Assembly (NCBI GenBank): GCA_030603385.1
Contig: JAUVXW010000004.1
Coordinates: 64,001 to 128,000 of the forward strand
Direction: 5' to 3'
DNA: 64,000 bases
Origin: Promethearchaeota archaeon
Lineage (GTDB): Archaea; Asgardarchaeota; Lokiarchaeia; Sigyniarchaeales; SOKP01
Positions 6,736 to 57,273 of this stretch are shown here, one piece after another (positions within the stretch are counted from its first letter, which is position 1; every line of letters starts with the position of its first letter). A program made the translations under genes and the position numbers. A model generated the notes under the pieces. The model searched no databases and was not told the origin of the DNA. It worked only from the letters and a program-made list of their open reading frames with translations.

Positions 6736-8565
6736 ATGTTAGAAATGGCAAAAGCTGATAAATCTAATCTCATCAATGTTGAAGAGTTTAATAAAAGATT
6801 TCAAGAATGGGTTAAAAACCATGCTGAACTCATCCAAGAAATTGGGAAAATTTTTGAAGAAAATAAAATTTCATGGGGATCCATTCTTGAACAAAATGCT
6901 CAAAAATACCCTAATAATCCCGCTATTAAATTTGAAGATACTATTCTTACTTATAAAGAATTTAATGACAAGGTTAACCAGTATGCGAATTATTTTATCT
7001 CTTTAGGTTTGAAAAGAGGTGATGTCGTAAAGGTTTTAATAAAGAACCGCATTGAATTATTGCTGGTTTATACCGCTAATGCTAAAATCGGAGTAATATC
7101 TTCAATGATCAATACTGATCTTCGCAAAAAAACCCTAGTGTATAGTTTAAACCTAACACCTGGCAAGATTGTTGTAATTGGTGAAGAATGTTTTAATGCT
7201 TTTAATAAAATTAAGTCTGATGTCAATTTATCAGATGCCAAACAACTCTGTTTTATAAATGATAGTGGGGACATGAACCTTCCTGATGAATTCATTGACC
7301 TTCCGCAAACTGTAATGGATTTCCCTGTAGAGAATCCACCAACTACAATTGATGTTAAGACTTCAGATGTTATTGCTTATATATTTACTTCCGGTACGAC
7401 GGGCTTACCTAAAGCAGCACTTTTAACACATTATAGAGTAATTGCTGCGGGTTCTGTTTTTGGGAGAATGATCGCAGATTTTTCTTCTGATGATACTATG
7501 TATATTCCACTACCTTTTTTTCACGGTACAGCTCTAATGACGGGATGGCCATCCATCTTTATTTATGGAGGTGCTTTAGCTTTAGCCCGTAAATTCAGCG
7601 TTAGTCTCTTCTGGGAAGATGTTCGTAAATTTAATGCGACTGGCTTTAATTATGTTGGAGAAATATGTCGCTATCTAATGAATCAACCTTCTAAACCAGA
7701 TGATTCAAATAATCCTGTTAGAGTAGTGATTGGGAATGGTCTCCGTCCAGAAATTTGGCTAGATTTTAAAAAACGATTTAAGATCCCTTTTATTGGAGAA
7801 TTTTATGGGTCATCAGAAGGAAACGGAGCATTTGCTAATGTATTAAATTTTGATTGTACATGTGGATATTCTGCTGGCGGTTATGCCATTGTAAGGTACG
7901 ATCTTGAGGAAGATAAACCCATTAGAAACACGAGAGGATTTATGAGAAAAGTACGTAGAGGTGAAGTTGGCTTAGCTCTATTCGAAAGTACGGAAACAAG
8001 CAAATTTAGGGGGTATACTGATAAAAATGCAACTGAAGCGAAGCTGTATCATAATGTTTTTAAAGAAGGAGATGAATGGTTTAATTCAGGCGATTTAATG
8101 CGGAATCAAGGATGTAGTCATGCCCAATTTGTTGATCGTCTCGGAGATACTTTCCGATGGAAGGGACATAATGTTTCAACTACTGAAATAGAACAAATCC
8201 TTAATATATTTGATCAGATCTCAATGTCATCTGTTTATGGGGTTAAAATACCATTGGTAGATGGACGAGCAGGAATGGCAGCAATTGTTCTCTCATCCAT
8301 CGTTAATGAATTTGATTTCAAGGAACTAGCAAGGCTTTTTAATGATAATCTTGCCCCATATGCCATACCAATTTTTCTCAGATTTAAGTCAGATCTCTCA
8401 ATAACGTACACTTTTAAACTTAAAAAAGGAAAACTCAAAGAAGAAGGCTTCGACCCTCAACATATTGAAGATACCCTATATGTTATGCTACCAAACGAGT
8501 CAGAATACATACCTATGACGAAAGATATCTATAAGAACATTCAGAACCAGAAATATAACTTTTAA
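6736..8565 (+). CDS. Long/very-long-chain acyl-CoA synthetase (FATP/VLACS family)
   Basis: YIFTSGTTGLPKAA, EFYGSSEG, WFNSGDL, FVDRLGDTFRWKGHNVSTTE. Confidence 0.92.
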   Translation: MLEMAKADKSNLINVEEFNKRFQEWVKNHAELIQEIGKIFEENKISWGSILEQNAQKYPNNPAIKFEDTILTYKEFNDKVNQYANYFISLGLKRGDVVKVLIKNRIELLLVYTANAKIGVISSMINTDLRKKTLVYSLNLTPGKIVVIGEECFNAFNKIKSDVNLSDAKQLCFINDSGDMNLPDEFIDLPQTVMDFPVENPPTTIDVKTSDVIAYIFTSGTTGLPKAALLTHYRVIAAGSVFGRMIADFSSDDTMYIPLPFFHGTALMTGWPSIFIYGGALALARKFSVSLFWEDVRKFNATGFNYVGEICRYLMNQPSKPDDSNNPVRVVIGNGLRPEIWLDFKKRFKIPFIGEFYGSSEGNGAFANVLNFDCTCGYSAGGYAIVRYDLEEDKPIRNTRGFMRKVRRGEVGLALFESTETSKFRGYTDKNATEAKLYHNVFKEGDEWFNSGDLMRNQGCSHAQFVDRLGDTFRWKGHNVSTTEIEQILNIFDQISMSSVYGVKIPLVDGRAGMAAIVLSSIVNEFDFKELARLFNDNLAPYAIPIFLRFKSDLSITYTFKLKKGKLKEEGFDPQHIEDTLYVMLPNESEYIPMTKDIYKNIQNQKYNF

Positions 8566-8599: not shown

Positions 8600-9573
8600 C
8601 TATATGTTAAAACCATCATCAAAATCATCATAATCTTCAAGGTCAAACCTTTTCCTTTCTTCTTCTTTCTTTTCTCTTTTAAGTTCTTTACGATCCTTAC
8701 GAGTAAGCTCATCTTTTCGTTTAACATAAATTTGTTCATATCTTTCTCTCAAAGCCTCAACATCTTCAACATGACCAATTTTGTCTTCCAATCCATCTTC
8801 AAAGAAAAAGTTCCGTTTGAATTTCTTAGCAGGAACACCCACATATATATAGTTTTTTTCTAAAACTTGTCCAACCGTCGTTACAGAATTAGCTGCTAAA
8901 ATACAATTATGCCCAATTTGAGTGCCTGGCATAACTATTGCGTGTGAACCAATCCTGACCTCATCTTCAATCACTGTCTTCCGTATTATCAACAAATTGC
9001 CTACGATTACAGCAGATTGGATGATTGCACCTTGTCCAACCACTACATCTTTTCCAAAATCTATAAATTCTGTATCAACCCATCCTTCGAACAAACTGTT
9101 CGAGATTTTAGTTTTTACTCCAAACATTTTGAAACAGACATTATCTAAAAATCCAGGGAAAGGGAATCTATGAGCAAGCCAGATTGGCCACCTTTTTATA
9201 GTATTCCGTAAACTCCAGTATCGGTAATCTTTATCTTCTGGAATTCTTAGGAAAACCCCTTCTCGAGGCTTATGAATTGCATTAACAATAAGTAGCAATA
9301 TTTTAGCAAAAATAATTGCTGAAAAAACAAGAGTTATATACATCAGAAATGCTAAAAGTGGTAGAAACGTGTAAAAATGAACGGGTCTTGCATAATTCCA
9401 TAAAAGTTGCCAATACACCCATAATTCCACGAGTATTGGTAATATACTTATCCAAATAAGAAAAATATAAAAAATCAAATAACGTTTCTTTACCAATACC
9501 GTCGGCGTGAATGGCCTTGTGTGAAAATGCGAATCGCATCTTACTCTACACGCATTGTATTTGGAACCGACAT
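8600..9573 (-). CDS. Membrane protein with left-handed beta-helix (hexapeptide) domain, type C. Intron-containing: exon 1 9573-9546, exon 2 9516-8600, 314 aa after splicing
   Basis: ATG 9573 has a GGAG SD. The spliced N-terminus MSVPNTMRVGPFTPTVLVKKRY aligns gap-free to paralog 27879 (MSVPASLNVGPNTTLTLVKKRY). Two TM helices and hexapeptide repeats (IEDEVRIGSHAIVMPGTQIG). Confidence 0.85.
9517..9545 (-). other. Putative 29-nt BHB-type mRNA intron
   Basis: Minus strand AATGC GTGT[AG^A]GT AAGATGCG ATT CGCATTTT C ACAC[AA^G]GCCATT. It has a 4-bp central helix, two 3-nt bulges and an 8-bp inner stem, contains an in-frame TAA, and its excision restores frame and a Gly codon. Confidence 0.8.
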
Positions 9574-9735
9574 TACTCTTCTCCTTTAACTTACTTATTT
9601 CTGTTTCTTTTTTACTACTTTTTTATTTAATTATTTAATAACTATAGATATTTACTAATATATCTTATTAACTAAAAATAAATCTTATAAATTATAAAAT
9701 CTACTTATAGTTAAAATTAGAAGTCCTCATTTTTG

Positions 9736-10884
9736 TTAGTTATTTAGAGCCATTTTGGTATAAATTGAAATAATATCTCCATCTTCAATTATATGGTTTA
9801 AATTAGCAATTTTTTGACCTGGATGTCTTGCAGAGTTCCCCCATATTAGCGAAAACCGAAAATCTTTTACAAATCTTTTATGAATCTTACGACAAAGAGT
9901 TTTCATGTTATCACCTTTATGAAGAATTATTGGTTCATCCATATCTGCTTCTTTTTTAGGAGGCTTTAAATATACTCGAATTAAATTCAATTCTTGGAAA
10001 ATACGATGGCGAAGTGCATTTATATTTTCTTGATTTTTTGCTGAAATCATGACCCAATGATTGTGCCCAATAGATTCCGTGATTTCTTCTGGTGAGAGTG
10101 GAATCTTCATCAAATCTACTTTATTAATTACAACAAATTCTTTTGTATAAACCCGATTTCCCATTATAAAATCAATTAATTGATCCGGTGTAGTATTTGG
10201 CTCAGAAAAATACACTCCTGCATTAAGAAGACCTAATTCGTTTGATAAAGCTTTAACCTCATTTTTATCCATTAATTGAGGGCCTTTTGAAGTGAAGTGA
10301 ATCCCACCTCGAGTTTATTCTTTAATAGAAATTCGTGATGGTCGACTATTTAAACGGATACCCGCATTATTTAGTTCATTTCTAATTTTTTTCAAATCTA
10401 GAAAATTGATGGTTCCATCTTCTCGAAAACAAATGATTATTAGAATCAATTCAGCTGTCCGTACAGCACCTAAGACTTGTTTCCCTTTACCTTTTCCGGT
10501 GGCGGCTCCTAATATGATACCTGGCAAATCTATCAGCTGTATTTTAGCATCCTCAATATTCATCATACCAGGAATGGCAGTTATTGTAGTAAAATCGTAA
10601 GCTGCTACTTTTGAATGAGTATCACCTTCAGTTAATAGGTTAAGCAATGATGATTTCCCAACGGATGGAAATCCAATAAAAGCTACTTGGGCATCACCCG
10701 ATTTTTTAATCCCAAAGCCCCCGCCACCTCCTTTCTTAGAACTCGCGATTTGAATCAAATTTTCTCGGAGTTTGGCTAATTGGGCTTTAATATAATTTAT
10801 ACTACGCTGAGTGCTCTTATTTGGGATAGTCTCTGCTAACCGTTCCTCAAGCTCCTTAATTCGATCTTCAACTTTTTCACTCAT
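9736..10884 (-). pseudogene. DRG/Rbg1-family OBG GTPase with TGS domain, interrupted by one in-frame TAA (10315-10317)
   Basis: GFPSVGKSSLL, YDFTT, DLPGII, C-terminal TGS domain (IWGNSARHPGQ). The two track ORFs are in one frame, joined by ISIKE*TRGGIHF. Confidence 0.8.
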
Positions 10885-12612: not shown

Positions 12613-14505
12613 TTATTCCTCTTCGTCCTTTGTTTTTATTAAATCTTTTTTATCTTCATCTATATTTACTTCATGCGAAACTTCAAATTTTTTTGCTTCA
12701 TCTACATCTCTTTTCATAAGAATTTCTCTTTTTGATTCAGCGTACTTATTTTCTTTCAATTCTATAGCAGGTATACCAAAATATATCCAGCCAGGTTTTA
12801 AAACTTGATCGTAGGTGGTTGAACTAATTGCTCCAATTACAGATTCTTTTTTTATAATAGTTCCTGGTGCAATTGAAGTCTGTCCTCCAACCATAACATA
12901 GTCATCAAATAAAACACCCTTAATTAATAAATATTTTCCAACAACCATGGAAGACATAATGGTTGCCCCCTGTCCGATCAGAACTTTACGACCTAATTTA
13001 ATAAATTCAGAGTCACACCACGTATCAGCTAAATGACTTGAAAAATCCATATCAACCCCAAGTTGCTGAAAAGCTATTACATCTACCCATGGAAATGGTG
13101 AATTCCGTAAAAACCATAAAGAAATCTTCTTTATTTGCGTTCGGAGCTGCCAGAATTCAAAATCTGTGCTTCCTATTTGCGCTTTAAAAACGCCCTCTTT
13201 AGGTTTATGAATTAAATTTACTAATATTAAAAGTAATTTACTGAAAAGAATACACGCTACTATAAAGATGTATAGCAATCCAAATAAGATGACTGGAAAA
13301 AAAAGAAAAAATGGTAAATGAAATCTTATAGAATTTCCATCTATTATATCCCCGGAATACCAATACCATAGGATTGTAATAAGTAAACCTGAAATCCAAA
13401 ATATTGGTATATAGACTAACAAAAACTTTACATTCACTCTGCTTATCGCAGAGCTAGTTGTGAAATCAATCGCCAAATCTTCTTTTGAAAGACTATTAAT
13501 ATCTATTTTTTCTTCTTGTAAGTCATCCAACAATTGTGTGTTATTAGGAACTTTATCTGTTTTCTCTAATCTACGCTCTTTCTCTTTCAATTGATTTAAT
13601 AATTTTTTATCTTTATACTCTTCAATATTCGCATTCTTTTCTAGATCCTTTGGTTTAACATCTAAGTATTCCATAATCTTTCTTCTAAAGATTCTTCTCA
13701 TAGGCATTCCATAATAAAAGTGTTTTCCTCCCTTTAATACACTATGTTTCGGTGTAGAAGCTAGAGGTAATAGATATGAATCATCAAAAATCTCACATCC
13801 TGGGGCAATATTGGCAAATGCAGCAGATGTTACATTATTACCAACTTTAATTTTAAAATAGGAGATATTGCCAAAGATCCCCTCAACAAAATGGCTCGCT
13901 AATGTAGTATTCACACCAATATAACAGTTCTCGCCGCATTCTATAAATTTATCCATACCGACAGACTCCTCAAAGGTTGTACCTTTTCCAATTTTGTTTG
14001 AGCCAACAAAATTAAAAAACCAGTTGCTGAGCCAAGGAAATATACCCTTATTAAAAGTGTTTTTTCCGTATTTTATCATAAAAGCCCTGATATGATAATA
14101 ATTTGCTGTTCTACTTTTTACATTTCGTGGAATAATTCCAGATATCGATGGAGATGTTCTTTCCGTAATTCTCCATATAATTCGTGTGATTAACCCTATC
14201 AGAAATAAGTGAATTAAATAGCACATTATAAGAACTAATGGCATAAATAAAAGAGATATCAACGATTTAAAATCAGTAAAAATTGATATAAAACTAAGAT
14301 TTTCTAAAAAGTATATCCGAAAGGGAAAGAAAAAGTATAACAAAAAAACAAATCCGGGGATTACCCATGAAATGTAATAAATAATAAAGAAAATAATAAT
14401 ATACAAATGAAATTGAACACTTACCTCCTCTTTAATGACTTCATTATTCAATTCATTAGAAGAGGGATGTTCAATTTCACTGTCTTCGTTGTTCATTTCT
14501 ACCAT
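12613..14505 (-). CDS. Membrane protein with two TM+hexapeptide modules (AB fusion, copy 1)
   Basis: N-half resembles 28759-29688 and C-half (DFTTSSAISR...) resembles 27876-28766. Hexapeptide repeats in both halves. Confidence 0.8.
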   Translation of the reverse strand: MVEMNNEDSEIEHPSSNELNNEVIKEEVSVQFHLYIIIFFIIYYISWVIPGFVFLLYFFFPFRIYFLENLSFISIFTDFKSLISLLFMPLVLIMCYLIHLFLIGLITRIIWRITERTSPSISGIIPRNVKSRTANYYHIRAFMIKYGKNTFNKGIFPWLSNWFFNFVGSNKIGKGTTFEESVGMDKFIECGENCYIGVNTTLASHFVEGIFGNISYFKIKVGNNVTSAAFANIAPGCEIFDDSYLLPLASTPKHSVLKGGKHFYYGMPMRRIFRRKIMEYLDVKPKDLEKNANIEEYKDKKLLNQLKEKERRLEKTDKVPNNTQLLDDLQEEKIDINSLSKEDLAIDFTTSSAISRVNVKFLLVYIPIFWISGLLITILWYWYSGDIIDGNSIRFHLPFFLFFPVILFGLLYIFIVACILFSKLLLILVNLIHKPKEGVFKAQIGSTDFEFWQLRTQIKKISLWFLRNSPFPWVDVIAFQQLGVDMDFSSHLADTWCDSEFIKLGRKVLIGQGATIMSSMVVGKYLLIKGVLFDDYVMVGGQTSIAPGTIIKKESVIGAISSTTYDQVLKPGWIYFGIPAIELKENKYAESKREILMKRDVDEAKKFEVSHEVNIDEDKKDLIKTKDEEE

Positions 14506-14600
14506 TAAAAGCTTTGATTTGCAATTGATCCTTATTATATTTTAATAGATATTTTTTTCCTTTTAAATTTATGAGTCTTAAGCATAGATAAAGATTTGCT

Positions 14601-14996
14601 ATGAATAACAAATGTGAAAACTGTGGAAAATGTTGTTTAGATACAGAAATGATTCTTTCTTTTGAAGATATCGAATTAATAAAGAAAAATTCAATCGATA
14701 ATATAGGAGAAGGTGATTTTGTGTTTAAAAATGAAAATGAGCAATTTCAACTCAAAAACATTGATGGTCATTGCGTTTTTTTAAATTACTCTGCAAAGAA
14801 ATGTAACATTTATGAATTTCGACCTCAAGGATGTAGATTTTATCCATTAATCTATGATATTAACAAAAAAAAATGCTTACTTGATGATGATTGTCCTAAA
14901 AAGGATCAATTTTATAATACAAAACAAAGTCTAAAAATTACATGTTCGAATTTGAAAAGGTTTTTAGAACAACAATTTACTTTGAAAATTGATTAA
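14601..14996 (+). CDS. YkgJ family cysteine-cluster protein
   Basis: CENCGKCC ... CVFL ... CNIYEFRPQGCRFYP. Confidence 0.88.
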   Translation: MNNKCENCGKCCLDTEMILSFEDIELIKKNSIDNIGEGDFVFKNENEQFQLKNIDGHCVFLNYSAKKCNIYEFRPQGCRFYPLIYDINKKKCLLDDDCPKKDQFYNTKQSLKITCSNLKRFLEQQFTLKID

Positions 14997-15008
14997 AGTT
15001 GAGATATC

Positions 15009-16847
15009 CTAGGTCAGATCTTTTTTGTCTTCTTCAATGTTAATTTTATGCTCAACTTCAAACTTCCTCTCTTCATCTACATCTTTTTTCATAACAATAT
15101 CACGTCTTTCTTCAGCATATCGGTTTTTCTTTAATTTAATGACGGGAATTCCAAAATATATCCATCCTGGTTCGAGGATCTGATTATATGTAGTTGAACT
15201 TATAGCTCCAACGACTGAATCCTTACCTACTATTGTTCCAGGTGCAATGGTTGATTGTCCTCCTATCACTACAAAATCATCAAGAATAACATCTTTAATT
15301 AATAAGTATTTTCCAACGACCATTGATGACATTACGGTAGCACCTTGACCTATTAGAACGGATCTTCCCATTTTTATAAATTCACCATCGCACCACGAGT
15401 CAAATAAGGAACTTGAAAGAGTCATTTTTATACCCATTTTTTTAAAAACTAATATGTCCATCCAAGGAAGAGGCCAATTTCGTATAAGCCATAAAACAAT
15501 TTTTTTTAACTCTGTCCGTAAACACCAAAATTCGAAATCACCATTACCTTTTTCAGCTTTAAAGACCCCCTCTTTTGGTATATGAATTAAATTTATTAAA
15601 ATTAAGAATAATTTAGTAAAAAAGAAACTCGCTATAATAAAAATAAACCACATAAGGATGACCATCGTTGGTAAAAAAAATGCCATAACCAACCACCTAT
15701 TATATCCAACATAATAAGTAAATGTATAAAACATTATGGTTACTAGCATACCAGAAAGCCAAAATATAGGAACATAGACAACTAAAAATTTTAAATTTAC
15801 CCTTGAAATTGCACTACTTGTCGTAAAATCAATTCTTAAATCTTCTTCATTTATATTATTAATATCAATATTATCTTCATTTGAATCTGTGAATTCTTGT
15901 TCATATTTAGGAAAAACTTCAGATTGTTTGATATCTTTCATGGCTTTTAATTTTTTTAACAGATTTTTATCTTTATAGCCGTTAATATTTTCATTTTTTT
16001 CTAAATCCTCTGGTTTAACACCTAAGTATCCCATAATCTTTTTTCTAAAGATTCTTCTCATCGGAATTCCAAAATAAAAGTTTTTTCCTCCCTTTAATAC
16101 ACTATGTTTCGGTGTAGAAGCTAGAGGTAATAGATATGAATCTTCAAACACCTCACTTCCCGGAGCAATGTTAGCCATTGCAGCAGCGGTTACGTTATTA
16201 CCAACTTTAATTTCAAAATAGGAGATATTGCCAAAAATCCCCTCAATTAGATGGCTTGTTAAGCTTGAATTTACTCCAATATAACAATTCTCGCCTATGT
16301 TAATAAATTTATCATTAACACAAGATTCTTCTAATGTTGAACCTTTAGAAATTTTACTAGCTCCAATAAAATTAAAAAACCAGTTGCTGAGCCAAGGAAA
16401 AAGCCCTTTCATAAAAGCATTCTTTCCTTGCTTAATCATAAAACCTCTTATTTGATAGTAATTCAATGTTTTACTTGGGAAATTTCTTGGTATAATCCCT
16501 TCTTTACTTGGTGACCTTTTTTGGCTCAAACTCCAAAAACCACGTGTAATTAGACCTATGAAAAATAACCGGAGAAGATAACAACAAATGAGAACAAAAG
16601 GCATAGAGATTAATGCTAATAAAGGCTTAAACTCGGTAAAAAGTGCCAAAAAATTAGTAGTTTCTAAAAAATGTGGTAAGAAAAAAAGAATCATATAAGT
16701 CATAAATAAAATTGCCGGAATTAATAAAGAAGCTAGAAAAATTGTAAAAAGAATAAAGAGATACCAGAAATATGGATTTTTAATTTCTTCTCTAACAGTT
16801 TTTTCCTCTAAGCTATCCTCAGTCGATTGTTGCTCTATCGTTGTCAA
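15009..16847 (-). CDS. Membrane protein with two TM+hexapeptide modules (AB fusion, copy 2)
   Basis: Paralog of 12613-14505 and 17011-18843. Confidence 0.8.
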   Translation of the reverse strand: MTTIEQQSTEDSLEEKTVREEIKNPYFWYLFILFTIFLASLLIPAILFMTYMILFFLPHFLETTNFLALFTEFKPLLALISMPFVLICCYLLRLFFIGLITRGFWSLSQKRSPSKEGIIPRNFPSKTLNYYQIRGFMIKQGKNAFMKGLFPWLSNWFFNFIGASKISKGSTLEESCVNDKFINIGENCYIGVNSSLTSHLIEGIFGNISYFEIKVGNNVTAAAMANIAPGSEVFEDSYLLPLASTPKHSVLKGGKNFYFGIPMRRIFRKKIMGYLGVKPEDLEKNENINGYKDKNLLKKLKAMKDIKQSEVFPKYEQEFTDSNEDNIDINNINEEDLRIDFTTSSAISRVNLKFLVVYVPIFWLSGMLVTIMFYTFTYYVGYNRWLVMAFFLPTMVILMWFIFIIASFFFTKLFLILINLIHIPKEGVFKAEKGNGDFEFWCLRTELKKIVLWLIRNWPLPWMDILVFKKMGIKMTLSSSLFDSWCDGEFIKMGRSVLIGQGATVMSSMVVGKYLLIKDVILDDFVVIGGQSTIAPGTIVGKDSVVGAISSTTYNQILEPGWIYFGIPVIKLKKNRYAEERRDIVMKKDVDEERKFEVEHKINIEEDKKDLT

Positions 16848-17010
16848 TTTATTAAATTTTTAATTTTGATTTATATTTAGTAATTAAGATAATTTTTCTA
16901 AAAAACTCAATGTTTTAAAAATATGACCTAATTGTAAAATTGATTACTTGTTAAAAGAGTCTTTATAAAAGCAATTAAATATGAAAATAAATTAAAAAAT
17001 TAGAGGCTTT

Positions 17011-18843
17011 TTAAGCAAGATCTTTTTTGTCCTCATCTACATTGATTTCATATTCAATTTCATACTTTTTCTCTTCGTCTACATCTTTTTTCATAAGGAT
17101 TTCTCTTTGCGATTCAGCGTATTTGTTTTCTTTTAGCTTGATAACAGGAATTCCAAAATAAATCCAGCCTGGTTCGATAATTTGATTATATGTGGTTGTA
17201 CTAATAGCACCAACAACGGAATCTTTACCTATTATTGTTCCAGGTGCAATGGTTGATTGTCCTCCTATCACAGCAAAATCATCGCATATAACCTCTTTAA
17301 TTATTAAATATTTTCCAACGACCATTGAGCTCATAACCACAGCCCCTTGACCTACAAGGTTTTTACGCCCAAATTTAATAAATTCACCATCACACCATGA
17401 ATCATATAAAGTACTGGAAAGAGACATTCTTATTCCCCCAAATTTGAAGGCTAATATGTCCATCCAGGGAAGAGGCCAATTACGTATAAGCCATAGAACA
17501 ATTTTCCTTAATTCGGTCCGTAAACACCAAAATTCCCAATTAGTGTCTCCAACTTCGGATTTAAAGATACCTTCTTTAGGTTTATGTATTAAATTGATTA
17601 AAGTTAAAAATAATTTACTGAAGAAGAAACAAGCCAGTATAAAAACAAACCACATAAGGATGACCATCGTTGGTAAAAAAAATGCTATAACCAACCAGTT
17701 TCGAACATAAAATGTGAACGTATAAAACATTATGGTTACTAGCATACCAGAAAGCCAAAATATAGGAACATAGACAACTAAAAATTTTAAATTTACCCTT
17801 GAAATTGCGCTACTTGTTGTGAAATCAAGTGCTAATTCTTCTTCTGATAATTTATTAATATCTATTTTTTCTTCTTGTAGGTCGTCCAACATTTCTGTGC
17901 TATTAGGAATCTCATCTGTTTTCTCTAATCTACGTTCTTTCTCTTTCAATTGTTTTAATAATTTTTTATCTTTATACCCTTCAATATTCTCATTTTTTTC
18001 TAAATCGCCAGATGTTATCTCTAAATATTCCATAGTTTTTTTTCTAAATATCTTTCTTAATGGAAGCCCCCAATAATAATTATTTCCTTTTAGTGCACTA
18101 TGTTTTGGAGTTGAAGCTATTGGAAGTAAAAAAGAGTTGTCGTAGACTTCTGATCCAGGGCCAACGATATTCATTACTGCTCCAGTAACATTATCTCCCA
18201 CTTTTACCTTAAAGTAAGAAACATTCCCAAAAATTCCCTCAGTAGCGTGGCTGGATATGGCAGAATTAACCCCTATGTAGCAGTTCTTGCCTACTTCAAT
18301 AAATTTATCATTACTTACGGACTCCTCAAAGGTACAACCTTTTCCGAATTTACTTGCTCCGATAAAGGTGAAGAACCAATTACTAAGCCATGGAAAAATA
18401 CCTTTCATAAAGGAATTCTTTCCGTATTTAATCAAAAAGCTCCTAATATGATAATACTTGAGAATTCTACTTGGAAAATTTCTCGGAATTATCCCATCTT
18501 TACTAGGGGATTTTTTTTCACTCGATTTCCAAAAAGCACGAGTAATTAATCCCACGAAAAATAAGCGGATTAAATAACAACCAATAAGAACCAAGGGCAT
18601 AGAGATTAATGCTATAATGGGTTTAAATTCAGTAAAAAGCGTGATAAAACTTGTAGTTTCTAAGAAATGTGGTAAGAAAAAAAATCTCATATAAGTCATA
18701 AATAATATAGCAGGAATGACCAATGAAGCTAAAAAAATCGTAAATAGCATGAAGAGATACCAAAAATATTGATATTTAATTTCTTCTCTAATCATTCCGT
18801 TCTCAGAATCGTTTTCAATTGACTGTAATTTAGTATCTGCCAT
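17011..18843 (-). CDS. Membrane protein with two TM+hexapeptide modules (AB fusion, copy 3)
   Basis: Paralog of the two preceding genes. Confidence 0.8.
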   Translation of the reverse strand: MADTKLQSIENDSENGMIREEIKYQYFWYLFMLFTIFLASLVIPAILFMTYMRFFFLPHFLETTSFITLFTEFKPIIALISMPLVLIGCYLIRLFFVGLITRAFWKSSEKKSPSKDGIIPRNFPSRILKYYHIRSFLIKYGKNSFMKGIFPWLSNWFFTFIGASKFGKGCTFEESVSNDKFIEVGKNCYIGVNSAISSHATEGIFGNVSYFKVKVGDNVTGAVMNIVGPGSEVYDNSFLLPIASTPKHSALKGNNYYWGLPLRKIFRKKTMEYLEITSGDLEKNENIEGYKDKKLLKQLKEKERRLEKTDEIPNSTEMLDDLQEEKIDINKLSEEELALDFTTSSAISRVNLKFLVVYVPIFWLSGMLVTIMFYTFTFYVRNWLVIAFFLPTMVILMWFVFILACFFFSKLFLTLINLIHKPKEGIFKSEVGDTNWEFWCLRTELRKIVLWLIRNWPLPWMDILAFKFGGIRMSLSSTLYDSWCDGEFIKFGRKNLVGQGAVVMSSMVVGKYLIIKEVICDDFAVIGGQSTIAPGTIIGKDSVVGAISTTTYNQIIEPGWIYFGIPVIKLKENKYAESQREILMKKDVDEEKKYEIEYEINVDEDKKDLA

Positions 18844-27021: not shown

Positions 27022-27879
27022 TTAGTCAATTTTAGTTTCTTTGTCCACACGCATTGTATATAACTCTTCAAATTTTTCGTGTGATTCTATTTCCTTTTCT
27101 ATTTGCTTTTCAATTATATCTTCTAATCCTTCTTCAAAAAATACGTTTTTTTTGAACTTTTTTGCGGGAGCTCCTAAGTATATAAAATTTTCTTCTAACT
27201 CTTGACCAACAGTAGTCAAAGAATGCCCTCCTAAAATTGAATTCTTTTTAATATGTGTTCCAGGCATAACAACACTGTGAGCACCAATTACTACATTATC
27301 TTCTATAATTGTTTTTCTTATAATAAATAAATTTCCGACTATTAGAGCTGATTGAACAATAGCACTTTGCCCAACGACTATATTTTTTCCAAATTCAATA
27401 AATTCCGTATCAACCCACCCTTCAAAAAGTGAATTTGAATATTTAATTTTCATACCAAACATTTTTAAACATATATTATTCATAAATGGGAAGGGGAATT
27501 TATGAGATATCCAAATTGGCCATTTCTTTATCGTACTTCTTAAACTCCAGTATCTATAATCTTTATCAGAAGAGTGCCTTAAAAAAATACCCTCTCGCGG
27601 TTTATGAATACGATTGACGATTATGAGAAATATCTTAGCAAAAATTAAGGATACGATAATAGAAGTTAGGTACATTACAAAAACTAAAAGGGGTAAGAAA
27701 AAAAGGAAGTGAATAAATTTTGGCTCATAAAGTTTCCAAAACAACCAAAATTCAAATTGAATTGTAAAAATACTAATCCAGATCAAAAAAATATAGAAAA
27801 TTAAGTATCTCTTTTTTACTAAAGTAAGAGTAGTATTTGGTCCAACATTTAAACTTGCGGGTACTGACATAATGTTCAA
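27022..27879 (-). CDS. Membrane hexapeptide-repeat protein, type C (intronless paralog of 8600-9573)
   Basis: Shares KPREG.FLR...DKDYRYWSLR and NSLFEGWVDTEFI with 8600-9573. Confidence 0.8.
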   Translation of the reverse strand: MNIMSVPASLNVGPNTTLTLVKKRYLIFYIFLIWISIFTIQFEFWLFWKLYEPKFIHFLFFLPLLVFVMYLTSIIVSLIFAKIFLIIVNRIHKPREGIFLRHSSDKDYRYWSLRSTIKKWPIWISHKFPFPFMNNICLKMFGMKIKYSNSLFEGWVDTEFIEFGKNIVVGQSAIVQSALIVGNLFIIRKTIIEDNVVIGAHSVVMPGTHIKKNSILGGHSLTTVGQELEENFIYLGAPAKKFKKNVFFEEGLEDIIEKQIEKEIESHEKFEELYTMRVDKETKID

Positions 27880-28766
27880 TCCTCCGAGTTAATGTGAAGA
27901 AATTTTTTCTTATCTTCATCAATATTAACTTCTTGTTTAACTTCATATTTTATTTCTTCATCCACATGCTTTCTATAAATGAGATCTCTTCTTTGCTCTG
28001 CATATTTATTAGGTTTTAATTTCCTTGCAAATTGAGGGCCTATATAAATCCAGGCTCGTTCTAAAATTTGGCTAGGAATTATAGTAGAAAAAGCTCCAAG
28101 CACAGATTCCTTCTCCATAATAGTACCTGGAGAAACGTGTGATACACCACCAACTAGTATGTGATCTCCTAGGATTACCTTTTTTATTATCAGATAGTTT
28201 CCTACCACCATTGAACTCATTACTACAGCTCCCTGCCCAACGGTAATGTTTCGGCCAAATTCTATAAATTCTCCATCCACCCAAGCATCATGTGCGTGAC
28301 TTGAGAAATCAATTCTTATACCTAACCACTTAAATCCCCACGTAACGACCCACGGGAGCGGACCATTACTCATAAACCAAAATACGAGTTTTTTAAGTTC
28401 TACTCTCAATCTCCAAAATTCATAATCGTTATCACCCTCGATTGCTCTGAAAACACCCTCTTTGGGAGTATGGATCATATTTATTATAAGAAGGAATGCT
28501 TTTGTAAAAATCGCAATACCAAATATAAAGATAAAATATAAAACAAATAACCATATAGGAAGTAAAAACATATTTATATACCATGTAATATTTCGCGATA
28601 TATCGAAAAATATAGCAGCAGCCATGTATCCAGAAATCCATAAGATAGGGATGTATAAAGCTAGAAACTTATAACCAATTCTACTTATTGCACTGGTTGT
28701 TACAAAATCAATCGTATAATCTATTTTGTTAGTCTCGTTTTTTAATCCTTTTCCAACTTTACTCAT
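27876..28766 (-). CDS. Membrane hexapeptide-repeat protein, type B
   Basis: IDFVTTSAISR, PKEGVF, VGQGAVVMSSMVVG. Overlaps both neighbours (operon). Confidence 0.8.
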   Translation of the reverse strand: MSKVGKGLKNETNKIDYTIDFVTTSAISRIGYKFLALYIPILWISGYMAAAIFFDISRNITWYINMFLLPIWLFVLYFIFIFGIAIFTKAFLLIINMIHTPKEGVFRAIEGDNDYEFWRLRVELKKLVFWFMSNGPLPWVVTWGFKWLGIRIDFSSHAHDAWVDGEFIEFGRNITVGQGAVVMSSMVVGNYLIIKKVILGDHILVGGVSHVSPGTIMEKESVLGAFSTIIPSQILERAWIYIGPQFARKLKPNKYAEQRRDLIYRKHVDEEIKYEVKQEVNIDEDKKKFLHINSED

Positions 28767-29688
28767 TTAATTTACTCTCAATATTTTTCTTTTTTCTTTT
28801 TTTTGATAAATTCATCTTTTCGTTAAGATCTTCCGCTCTTTTCAAATCTTCTTCTGTGATTTGTAAGAAATCCATTACCCTTCTCTTAAAGATTTTTCTT
28901 AGAGGAGTTCCAAAATAGTAATTATTACCTTTCAAAATATTATATTTTGTTGCTCCTGTCACGGGAAACCACCAAGAATTATTACCAATTTCTACACCAG
29001 GACCAAAACAATTAAAACCTCCAGAAGTAACATTATTACCAATTTTTACTTTTGCAAAAGAAATATTTCCGAAAATCCCTTCTACAGCATGCGAGACCAT
29101 ACCAGGATTTGTTCCAATGTAAGAATTTTCTCCAATTTCTATAAATCGATCACCAGCAAGTTGTTCTTCTATAACCGTTCCTTTTCCAATTTTATTAGTC
29201 CGTGTAAAATTAAACATCCATTTTAATAGCCAGGGAAATGGTCCTCTTGAAAAAGCATTTTTCGGATATTTAATCGTAAAACTACGAAAGTGGTAAAAAT
29301 TTAAAGTTTTACTGGGTATATTTCTTGGAATAATCCCTGATTTTGAAGGGGATCGCTTTTCTGAGATGCCCCAAAACCATCGGGTAATTAATGCTACAAA
29401 AAATAGATGTATTAAGTAGCATACGATAATTACAAGAGGTAGACATAAAGAAGCAATTAGAGAAGGTAAATTGGTAAATATTGAGATAAAATTCCTTACT
29501 TCTAAGAAAAAGGGTAAATAAAATAGCATTATAAACATCATGAAAATTATGGCTGGTACTAGGAAAGAGCCAAAATAAATGACAAAAAATGCAGGTAAAT
29601 ACCAATGCAATTGTAAATTAATTTCTTCTTTAATAAGATTATTAGCAGGATCTACGTTTTTTGTTTCAGTTTCTTTTGTTTCCGCCAC
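28759..29688 (-). CDS. Membrane hexapeptide-repeat protein, type A
   Basis: GIIPRN, SHAVEGIFGNIS, IGENSYIG. Matches the N-half of the AB fusions. Confidence 0.8.
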   Translation of the reverse strand: MAETKETETKNVDPANNLIKEEINLQLHWYLPAFFVIYFGSFLVPAIIFMMFIMLFYLPFFLEVRNFISIFTNLPSLIASLCLPLVIIVCYLIHLFFVALITRWFWGISEKRSPSKSGIIPRNIPSKTLNFYHFRSFTIKYPKNAFSRGPFPWLLKWMFNFTRTNKIGKGTVIEEQLAGDRFIEIGENSYIGTNPGMVSHAVEGIFGNISFAKVKIGNNVTSGGFNCFGPGVEIGNNSWWFPVTGATKYNILKGNNYYFGTPLRKIFKRRVMDFLQITEEDLKRAEDLNEKMNLSKKRKKKNIESKLNE

Positions 29689-56994: not shown

Positions 56995-57273
56995 ATGGCA
57001 GGTTCTGAATATATTAGTTGGAGTCCTATTAGGCGCCTTATGAAACTATAATAATCAACTCGATTATTTCTTCAAAATAATGGCGCTTTAATCGTTGCTC
57101 GTGATGCAGTTAACGAGCTCGTTGAATGGATGGGTAGCTCCGCTGAGAAACTTACTAAAAGTGCTTTAACTTTAACTAAACACTCTAAAAGAAAGAAAAT
57201 CACGAGCTTCCTTTAGAATTCCTAAAAAAACGTGAAAAATGACATTCTTTTAGCGATTAAATACTTCAAATAA
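56995..57273 (+). CDS. Archaeal histone, 72 aa after removing two introns (exons 56995-57046, 57077-57206, 57237-57273)
   Basis: Spliced product MAGSEYISWSPIRRLMKHNGALIVARDAVNELVEWMGSSAEKLTKSALTLTKHSKRKKITRNDILLAIKYFK is an HMf-type histone fold (PIxRLMK..GA..V..DA; H.KRK.I...DI.LA). GGAGG SD present. Absent from the ORF track. Confidence 0.92.
57047..57076 (+). other. Putative 30-nt BHB-type mRNA intron 1 of the histone gene
   Basis: GCGCCTTA TGAA[AC^T]AT AATAATC AACTC GATTATT TC TTCA[AA^A]TAATGGCGC. Contains in-frame TAA TAA. Excision gives AAA CAT AAT (K-H-N). Confidence 0.85.
57207..57236 (+). other. Putative 30-nt BHB-type mRNA intron 2 of the histone gene
   Basis: CACG[AG^C]TTCC TTTAG AATTC CTAAA AAAA CGTG[AA^A]AATGAC. 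Contains in-frame TAG and TAA. Excision gives ACG AGA AAT GAC (T-R-N-D). Confidence 0.82.

What the first reader, a model, noticed from the sequence alone, without database searches (positions are those of the whole stretch)
9496..9590. Third BHB intron (29 nt, frame-shifting) hides the true 5' exon of a membrane hexapeptide-repeat gene
SEEN: the track starts this gene at a TTG (9496), but an SD-led ATG at 9573 gives MSVPNTMRV, then a TAA-containing hairpin, then PFTPTVLVKKRY in another frame. The intronless paralog at 27879 reads MSVPASLNV-G-PNTTLTLVKKRY, an internal control that fixes the insertion at 29 nt. The insert folds as GUGU[AGA]..AAGAUGCG-AUU-CGCAUUUU..ACAC[AAG]. Canonical BHB cuts give G|GG = Gly at exactly the paralog's Gly. 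INFERENCE: an independent gene with the same splice geometry. A length that is not a multiple of 3 excludes simple stop read-through.
Basis: partly seen in the sequence, partly recalled or inferred. Interest (0 to 1): 0.9.

Follow-up and report, generated by a model that had tools for sequence, protein, structure and literature searches.

The report
tRNA-type mini-intron hiding a gene start
A 29-base insert shaped like an archaeal tRNA intron sits 28 bases into a membrane-protein gene of an Asgard archaeon; comparison with relatives indicates it is cut out of the messenger RNA, a kind of splicing that the papers I could search document for only one archaeal protein gene (cbf5), though I found no RNA reads that show it.

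Summary
All coordinates are on the minus strand.

- **Gene layout:** an SD-led ATG at 9573 opens a 28-nt exon (MSVPNTMRV plus G). A 29-nt insert (9545-9517) carrying TAA follows. The rest of the gene (9516-8600) continues in another frame.
- **Fit to relatives:** removing exactly these 29 nt gives MSVPNTMRVGPFTPTVLVKK. This is the N-terminus of 28 of 30 same-genus orthologs and of more than 100 database homologs.
- **RNA shape:** the insert can be drawn as a canonical hBHBh' motif (4-bp helix GUGU/ACAC, bulges AG|A and AA|G). The canonical cuts coincide with the boundaries set by the orthologs.
- **Second allele:** one other species (G003) has a 30-nt version at the same site with the same helix.
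- **Selection:** five of six substitutions upstream of the annotated TTG are synonymous in the exon-2 frame. The spliced frame is under purifying selection in insert-bearing strains.
- **Enzymes:** the genome encodes two EndA paralogs and RtcB.
- **Weaknesses:** no RNA read or contig covers the junction, the BHB is not the minimum-energy fold, and my genome-wide scans had no power.
- **Unexplained:** the two insert-bearing species are not sisters yet share exon 1 and the 5' half of the intron.
- **Earlier notes:** the scan has noted similar mini-introns in other genes of this genome. I did not test those claims.

Best reading: an EndA/RtcB-spliced mRNA intron (about 0.8).

The parts
9581..9584 (-). 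Shine-Dalgarno-like GGAG, 7 nt upstream of the ATG
   Evidence: Read directly. The AGGAGAAGAGTA-ATG stretch is unchanged in strains L036 and L037, while the UTR further upstream differs.
9546..9573 (-). Exon 1, 28 nt: ATG plus MSVPNTMRV and the first base of a Gly codon
   Evidence: It is identical in the G003 allele. The peptide is nearly invariant in more than 100 homologs.
9517..9545 (-). 29-nt insert, the proposed BHB intron, carrying in-frame TAA at 9543-9541
   Evidence: Absent from 28 of 30 orthologs and from the paralog. It occurs once in the genome. It is kept in independent assemblies L036, L037 and the X6 contig.
9548..9551 (-). Central helix H, 5' strand GUGU (exon 1)
   Evidence: Pairs with 9519-9522. 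All four pairs are Watson-Crick in both alleles.
9519..9522 (-). Central helix H, 3' strand ACAC (intron)
9545..9547 (-). 5' bulge AG|A; predicted cut between 9546 and 9545
   Evidence: Geometry. The cut position agrees with the ortholog alignment.
9516..9518 (-). 3' bulge AA|G; predicted cut between 9517 and 9516
   Evidence: The bulge reads UAG in the G003 allele.
9523..9544 (-). Inner helix h': G9544-C9523, U9543 bulged, then the 8-bp hairpin AAGAUGCG / CGCAUUUU with loop AUU
   Evidence: In G003 an extra G makes this helix continuous.
9514..9515 (-). Outer helix h, 3' strand (exon 2), pairing with 9552-9553. After one bulged C, CAUU/AAUG can extend it
8600..9516 (-). Exon 2: GG, then 304 codons (transmembrane helices, left-handed beta-helix hexapeptide domain, charged tail), then the stop
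   Evidence: The spliced CDS is 314 codons.
9494..9496 (-). TTG used as start by ORF callers; in the spliced reading it is an internal Leu codon
   Evidence: Orthologs use CTT, TTA, CTG or TTG here.
27022..27870 (-). Uninterrupted paralog used as internal control

Best explanation
The 29 nt at 9545-9517 (minus strand) are a bulge-helix-bulge intron in the pre-mRNA of a membrane hexapeptide-repeat (left-handed beta-helix) protein.

Inferred mechanism:
- In the transcript, the end of exon 1 (GUGU) pairs with the 3' end of the intron (ACAC).
- This 4-bp helix is flanked by two 3-nt bulges on opposite strands. An inner intron hairpin and a short exon-exon helix stack on either side.
- The tRNA-splicing endonuclease, here probably a heteromer of the two EndA paralogs, cuts after G9546 and after A9517.
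- RtcB joins the exons.
- The mature mRNA is translated from the SD-led ATG at 9573 into a 314-residue protein that starts MSVPNTMRVGPFTPTVLVKKRY.
- Unspliced RNA would give only a 10-residue peptide from that ATG.

Shown here: the anatomy, its match to intronless relatives, a second allele, coding-type evolution of the spliced frame, and the presence of the enzymes.

Inferred only: that cleavage and ligation take place.
For: 1. Canonical cuts remove exactly 29 nt and create a GGG Gly codon. The product equals the N-terminus of 28 of 30 same-genus orthologs and of about 100 of 120 database representatives at 68-90% identity.
2. Only this register gives a BHB near the site. A random insert does so in 0.1-0.9% of trials, and in 0.014% at the observed quality.
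3. G003 carries a 30-nt allele at the same site with H, both bulges and h' intact. In the DNA its exon 2 is in frame with exon 1, whereas in G000 it is out of frame. Only excision restores both.
4. Five of the six substitutions among the three alleles between the 3' cut and TTG 9496 are synonymous third positions in the exon-2 frame. That frame has no start codon upstream in G000.
5. Within the insert-bearing clade, the spliced CDS shows 26 synonymous against 6 non-synonymous codon differences, and every allele is open for 314-316 codons.
6. The insert is real DNA, seen in four independent assemblies or contigs.
7. The genome has two EndA paralogs over the Pfam cut-off and one RtcB.
8. Splicing of a coding RNA by this route is documented for cbf5 (PMC2738675). 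Asgard tRNA genes are heavily interrupted by BHB introns (bioRxiv 10.64898/2026.10.13.758758).
Against: - No RNA evidence exists for the junction. The only RNA-library contig that maps lies inside exon 2.
- The BHB is not the minimum-free-energy fold, and folding energies are unremarkable (z -1.8, -1.5 and +0.3).
- Only two distinct alleles exist, so there is no double-sided covariation.
- The outer helix h has just 2 contiguous pairs.
- The relaxed BHB motif is frequent in this AT-rich DNA.
- My genome-wide test found no excess of true over mirror geometry among ORF-fusing candidates (917 against 929). That test had little power.
- The 44-nt identity of exon 1 plus the 5' half of the intron between non-sister species may reflect recent exchange rather than selection.
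Confidence: 0.8

Rival explanations
1. The insert is a disabling insertion. Exon 1 is a relic, and the protein is made from unspliced mRNA starting at TTG 9496, lacking 17 N-terminal residues, or the gene is on its way to decay.
For: ORF callers pick TTG 9496. No spliced RNA was seen. The 44-nt identity between G000 and G003 could be a recent exchange tract rather than constraint.
Against: - The 17 residues that would be lost are among the most conserved in more than 100 homologs.
- The 20 nt upstream of the TTG change almost only at synonymous third positions of the exon-2 frame (5 of 6; chance about 2%).
- The SD, ATG and exon 1 are unchanged in three lineages while the upstream UTR diverges.
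- There is no SD-like motif before the TTG.
- The insert meets BHB geometry in the one register that restores the protein.
Confidence: 0.1
2. The full-length protein is made by translational recoding, either a frameshift or ribosomal bypass of the hairpin as in phage T4 gene 60, and not by RNA splicing.
For: A stop codon sits right after the take-off region and is followed by a hairpin, a layout that resembles bypassing signals (own knowledge of T4 gene 60; sequence).
Against: - There are no matching take-off and landing codons. The codon before CCA in the exon-2 frame is AGG, so a bypass would not give the conserved V-G-P.
- G000 would need a frame change while G003 would need in-frame read-through of TAA, so one recoding mechanism cannot serve both alleles.
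- No slippery heptamer is present.
Confidence: 0.04
3. The insert is an assembly or sequencing artefact of the MAG.
For: The genome is a metagenome bin with about 7% estimated contamination.
Against: The identical 29-nt insert appears in a depth-85 contig of run X6 and in two JGI metagenome contigs, L036 and L037. The 30-nt allele appears in G003, L038 and the GenBank MAG contig JAHQWK010000032.
Confidence: 0.01

Closest known systems
BHB intron in the cbf5 (pseudouridine synthase) pre-mRNA of Crenarchaeota (Yokobori et al. 2009, PMC2738675, and the work it cites)
   Same: A short intron inside an archaeal protein-coding sequence, removed through a bulge-helix-bulge motif by the tRNA-splicing endonuclease. 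It has a patchy distribution among related species, with inferred gain and loss.
   Different: - The gene and phylum differ: a membrane hexapeptide-repeat protein in Asgard (Promethearchaeia).
- The intron lies only 28 nt into the CDS, so it hides the start codon from gene callers.
- It is present in 2 of 54 species of the genus, and these are not sisters.
- Splicing is not yet shown by RNA here.
[quoted passage not shown]
   Same: The hBHBh' geometry is the same: a 4-bp helix, two 3-nt bulges, and cuts after the second bulge base. Size is similar, and the same enzymes are implied (EndA with two paralogs, RtcB).
   Different: [quoted passage not shown] The outcome is a restored reading frame, not a folded RNA.
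Unconventional splicing of XBP1/HAC1 mRNA by Ire1 and RtcB/Trl1 in eukaryotes (own knowledge)
   Same: A tiny intron (26 nt in XBP1, not a multiple of three) is cut out of an mRNA by a structure-specific endonuclease and joined by a tRNA ligase, changing the reading frame.
   Different: The endonuclease and recognition motif are different (Ire1 acting on stem-loops). That system is stress-regulated and cytoplasmic. No homology is implied, and regulation was not tested here.
Translational bypassing in phage T4 gene 60 (own knowledge)
   Same: A stop codon and a hairpin interrupt a coding sequence that is nevertheless expressed as one protein.
   Different: Bypassing needs matched take-off and landing codons, which are absent here. 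The two alleles differ in frame relation.

Membership tests
Archaeal BHB (EndA-spliced) intron | 4-bp central helix flanked by two 3-nt bulges on opposite strands, with flanking helices h and h' | tested here: met
   GUGU/ACAC, with bulges AGA and AAG. Helix h' has 9 pairs and one bulged U. Helix h has 2 pairs, with 4 more after a bulged C. This is not the MFE fold.
Archaeal BHB (EndA-spliced) intron | Cuts after the second base of each bulge yield the functional mature RNA | tested here: met
   The spliced sequence recreates MSVPNTMRVGPFTPTV, as in 28 of 30 intronless orthologs and more than 100 homologs.
Archaeal BHB (EndA-spliced) intron | Motif kept in other intron-bearing homologs despite sequence change | tested here: met
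   The G003 allele (30 nt, 3 substitutions and 1 inserted base) keeps H, the bulge sizes and h'. In total 96.8% of cells are paired, against 23-58% when slid. There are only two alleles and no compensatory double change.
Archaeal BHB (EndA-spliced) intron | Splicing endonuclease and RNA ligase encoded by the genome | tested here: met
   Two PF01974 matches (99 and 71 bits; ORFs of about 200 aa) and one RtcB (558 bits).
Archaeal BHB (EndA-spliced) intron | Excision observed in RNA (spliced junction or circular intron) | tested here: inconclusive
   No RNA-library contig covers 9490-9600. No near-identical full-length product was found in the protein collection.
Programmed frameshift or translational bypass | Slippery site, or matched take-off and landing codons; one fixed frame relation | tested here: not met
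   Neither feature is in the sequence. The alleles differ in frame relation, 29 against 30 nt.
Disrupted gene or pseudogene 5' end | Loss of coding constraint on the cut-off part | tested here: not met
   Exon 1 is invariant. Five of six changes upstream of the TTG are synonymous. The spliced CDS shows 26 synonymous against 6 non-synonymous codon differences.
Repeated mobile element (MITE-like hairpin) | Multiple copies in the genome, terminal repeats or target duplication | tested here: not met
   There is a single copy in 3.9 Mb. No duplication is seen at the ends.
Hexapeptide-repeat (LbH) acyltransferase superfamily, the host gene | Hexapep repeats over the Pfam cut-off | tested here: met
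   PF00132 scores 41.7 bits against a cut-off of 27. The weak domain-level hit to TIGR02353, the Pls/PosA synthetase C-terminal domain, scores 35 bits and is far below its cut-off. I treat that hit only as a lead.

The most novel reading that the evidence does not exclude
This insert is one of a population of EndA-spliced mini-introns in Asgard protein-coding mRNAs, and it can move between species together with adjacent exon sequence. Exon 1 plus the 5' half of the intron are identical in two non-sister species whose genes are otherwise about 77% identical. Because the intron lies 28 nt from the start codon, synthesis of the full protein would depend on splicing, which makes the site a possible post-transcriptional gate in the archaeal lineage closest to eukaryotes.
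Probability: 0.3. Interest if true: 0.85.

Novelty: new member of a known kind. Interest (0 to 1): 0.7.

Why it matters
In the papers I could search, endonuclease-mediated splicing of an archaeal protein-coding RNA is documented for a single gene, cbf5 in Crenarchaeota. A well-supported case in an Asgard archaeon matters for four reasons.

- It suggests that the tRNA-splicing machinery also processes mRNAs in the lineage closest to eukaryotes.
- It shows that gene callers can mis-place starts and truncate proteins in these genomes. Here 17 highly conserved residues are lost from the annotation.
- It offers a compact test substrate: a 70-nt RNA with predicted cuts and a diagnostic tryptic peptide.
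- Its presence in two non-sister species with a shared 5' segment bears on an open question, namely how such introns arrive and spread.

Tried and rejected
- **RNA evidence.** X1 has a single 334-nt contig inside exon 2. X3 gave nothing. X6, of unknown kind and probably DNA, keeps the insert. This says nothing for or against splicing.
- **Protein collection search for a spliced product**. There was no full-length hit above 90% identity. Three homologs that start late (P0091, P0107, P0111) proved to be contig-end truncations or caller choices, not further introns.
- **Collection scans.** My first degenerate pattern had one N too many after the intron and found nothing. The exact 22-mer then found L036-L039.
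- **Genome-wide scan for BHB motifs whose removal fuses two open frames of at least 50 codons.** Candidates numbered 917 in true geometry and 929 in mirror geometry. There was no excess at any stringency or length.
- **Follow-up using paralogs that align across the junction.** This gave 8 against 5. Adjacent same-strand genes swamp the signal, so these tests neither support nor refute a genome-wide system.
- **Thermodynamic folding.** It does not single out the BHB.
- **Rfam and ARAGORN on the window.** Neither found anything.
- **Repeat-element idea.** Rejected, because the insert is unique in the genome.
- **Neighbouring split DRG GTPase as another intron.** Rejected. It is a single in-frame TAA where a close strain has CAA.

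Full report
**What is there**

The gene lies on the minus strand. The layout below is read directly from the sequence.

- GGAG (9584-9581) precedes ATG 9573.
- The frame reads MSVPNTMRV, then GAG TAA (stop at 9543-9541).
- From 9514 downward a second frame reads PFTPTVLVKKRY and runs on for 304 codons to the stop at 8600.
- In G000 this second frame has no ATG, GTG or TTG upstream of TTG 9496, which is where the ORF lister starts the gene.
- The in-window paralog (27022-27870) reads MSVPASLNVGPNTTLTLVKKRY without interruption.
- Relative to the paralog, the target carries 29 extra bases (9545-9517).

**The motif**

Drawn by hand, the RNA has five elements.

| Element | Positions and sequence |
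|---|---|
| Outer helix h | C9552-G9515 and G9553-C9514, extendable after one bulged C |
| Central helix H | G9551 U9550 G9549 U9548 with A9522 C9521 A9520 C9519 |
| 5' bulge | A9547 G9546 \| A9545 |
| Inner helix h' | G9544-C9523, U9543 bulged, then 8 bp AAGAUGCG/CGCAUUUU with loop AUU |
| 3' bulge | A9518 A9517 \| G9516 |

- This is the strand order of tRNA BHB motifs. On each strand the 4-nt helix comes 5' of the bulge.
- Cuts after the second bulge base remove 29 nt and join G to GG.
- In a scan 15 nt either side and over lengths 12-59, this is the only BHB found.
- Shuffled or random inserts meet the criteria in this register in 0.1-0.9% of trials. At the observed quality the figure is 0.014%.
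- ViennaRNA does not return the BHB as the minimum-energy fold, and the energies are not unusual.
- A relaxed BHB definition hits dozens of times in 370 nt of this AT-rich DNA. The motif alone is therefore weak evidence, and the coincidence of register carries the weight.

**Relatives**

The organism belongs to a genus with 54 species genomes in the collection. One member is deposited as a Promethearchaeia MAG, so this is an Asgard archaeon.

- Thirty same-genus orthologs (79-89% protein identity) were fetched.
- Twenty-eight have an uninterrupted start that reads MSVPNTMRVGPFTPTVLVKK. This is exactly the predicted spliced product.
- A pattern search for any 15-60-nt insert at this site, and a BLAST search with the insert, found it only in G000 and G003 among the 54 genomes.
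- Of 120 database representatives at 68-90% identity, about 100 start with this peptide almost unchanged. It is one of the most conserved parts of the protein.

**The second allele**

G003 (L011, identical to L038 and L039) has a 30-nt insert at the same position.

- Exon 1 is identical to that of G000.
- H and the bulge sizes are kept.
- One G·U pair becomes G-C, and one G-C pair becomes G·A.
- An extra G makes h' continuous, and the first base of the 3' bulge changes.
- In G003 the two exons are in the same genomic frame but are separated by TAA. In G000 they are in different frames.
- Excision at the BHB cuts restores the same protein in both. No single frameshift or read-through mechanism does that.

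**Evidence that the spliced frame is translated**

- Among the three alleles (G000; strains L036 and L037; G003), six substitutions fall in the 20 nt between the 3' cut and TTG 9496.
- Five of the six are synonymous third positions of the exon-2 frame. The sixth is Thr to Ser.
- By chance, five or more of six would fall on third positions about 2% of the time.
- Between G000 and strain L036, both of which carry the insert, the spliced CDS differs at 26 synonymous and 6 non-synonymous codons. Of the 35 base differences, 27 are at third positions.
- All alleles are open for 314-316 codons.
- The SD-to-ATG stretch and exon 1 are unchanged in the strains, while the UTR further upstream varies.

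**Reality of the DNA**

- The 29-nt form is present in a depth-85 contig of run X6 and in two JGI metagenome contigs.
- The 30-nt form is present in a JGI contig and a GenBank MAG.
- The insert occurs once in the 3.9-Mb genome, so it is not a repeat family.

**Machinery**

- The genome has two tRNA-intron endonuclease matches over the Pfam cut-off, in ORFs of about 200 aa. This is consistent with a two-subunit enzyme.
- It has one RtcB.
- A recent preprint reports that Asgard tRNA genes are heavily interrupted by BHB introns and that most of the genomes it examined have two EndA paralogs.

**What is missing**

- Laying four runs produced no RNA cover of 9490-9600 and no joints.
- Splicing itself is therefore inferred, not observed.

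**An unexplained feature**

- In a tree of exon-2 proteins, G003 groups with two intronless species (support 97/97), while G000 branches elsewhere. RtcB identities agree that G003 is not G000's nearest relative.
- Yet the first 60 nt of the spliced CDS of G003 are closest to G000 (0.90, against 0.73-0.75 to its tree neighbours). From nt 60 onward the tree neighbours are closest.
- The longest identical run in the 1.1-kb pairwise alignment (76% identity overall) is 44 nt long. It covers exactly the ATG, exon 1 and the first 16 nt of the intron.
- Two readings are open. Either the intron is old and was lost many times, with very strong nucleotide-level constraint on exon 1, or the intron-bearing 5' segment was exchanged between lineages by recombination.
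- I cannot decide between them. For this reason I do not count the 44-nt identity as proof of selection.

**Rivals**

- **Truncated protein from TTG 9496 (about 0.1).** The conservation of the lost residues, the synonymous pattern upstream of the TTG, and the BHB register all contradict it.
- **Recoding or bypass (about 0.04).** It lacks take-off and landing codons and cannot serve both alleles.
- **Artefact.** Independent assemblies exclude it.

**Comparison with known systems**

- The mechanism proposed is the one shown for cbf5 pre-mRNA in Crenarchaeota (PMC2738675). That paper also describes lineage-specific loss and warns about gene prediction.
- My literature searches found no report of such introns in Asgard protein-coding genes.
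- I therefore file this as a new member of a known kind. It is notable for its position 28 nt into the CDS and for its odd distribution.
- Earlier notes of this scan report similar inserts in other genes of the same genome. I did not verify those. I only saw that histone insert 57047-57076 passes my BHB function.

**Host gene**

- The protein has N-terminal transmembrane helices, a hexapeptide-repeat beta-helix domain (Pfam Hexapep) and a charged tail.
- It belongs to a set of paralogous membrane LbH proteins in the window: 27022-29688 as three separate genes, and 12613-18843 as three proteins of about 610-630 aa.
- Weak domain-level similarity to the C-terminal domain of Pls/PosA-type synthetases, together with a divergently placed AMP-dependent ligase at 6736-8565, hints at a split poly-amino-acid-synthetase-like system. 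This is only a lead.

Noticed in passing
window 9736-10884 (minus), codon at 10312-10314: The DRG/Obg-type GTPase next door (MMR_HSR1, MMR_HSR1_Xtn and TGS domains) is split into two ORFs by a single in-frame TAA. The close strain contig L036 has CAA (Gln) there and an intact 382-codon gene. This is a nonsense change or a consensus error in this MAG, not an intron.
   Followed up: yes
window 9517-9573 compared with L011:1441-1498: Exon 1 and the first 16 nt of the intron (44 nt) are identical between G000 and G003. The two species are not sisters in the exon-2 tree, the rest of the gene is about 77% identical, and the 5' UTRs cannot be aligned. This suggests either lateral exchange of the intron-bearing 5' segment or many losses combined with extreme constraint.
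   Followed up: partly
window 6736-8565 (+), 8600-9573 (-), 12613-18843 (-), 27022-29688 (-): There is a family of membrane-anchored hexapeptide-repeat proteins: three separate genes at 27-29.7 kb and three fused forms of about 610-630 aa at 12.6-18.8 kb. They show weak similarity to the C-terminal tandem domains of Pls/PosA-type synthetases, and an AMP-dependent ligase lies beside the intron-bearing gene. The set may be a split homopolymer-synthetase-like system.
   Followed up: partly
window 57047-57076 (+): The first of the two histone-gene inserts noted earlier is recovered by my BHB function (h 3 bp, h' 7 bp, length 30). The second (57207-57236) is not recovered under my contiguous-helix criteria.
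   Followed up: partly
G000 contig C26, around 45169, 48250 and 60851 (minus strand): Very long open frames (about 420-1030 codons on each side) are interrupted at three places. Both true-geometry and mirror-geometry candidates fuse them. They could be frameshifts, introns or assembly errors in giant repetitive genes.
   Followed up: no
window 8767-9091: A 334-nt contig from a hydrothermal-vent metatranscriptome library (X1) matches exon 2 with 8 differences. This hints that the gene, or a close relative's copy, is transcribed, though DNA carry-over is not excluded.
   Followed up: no
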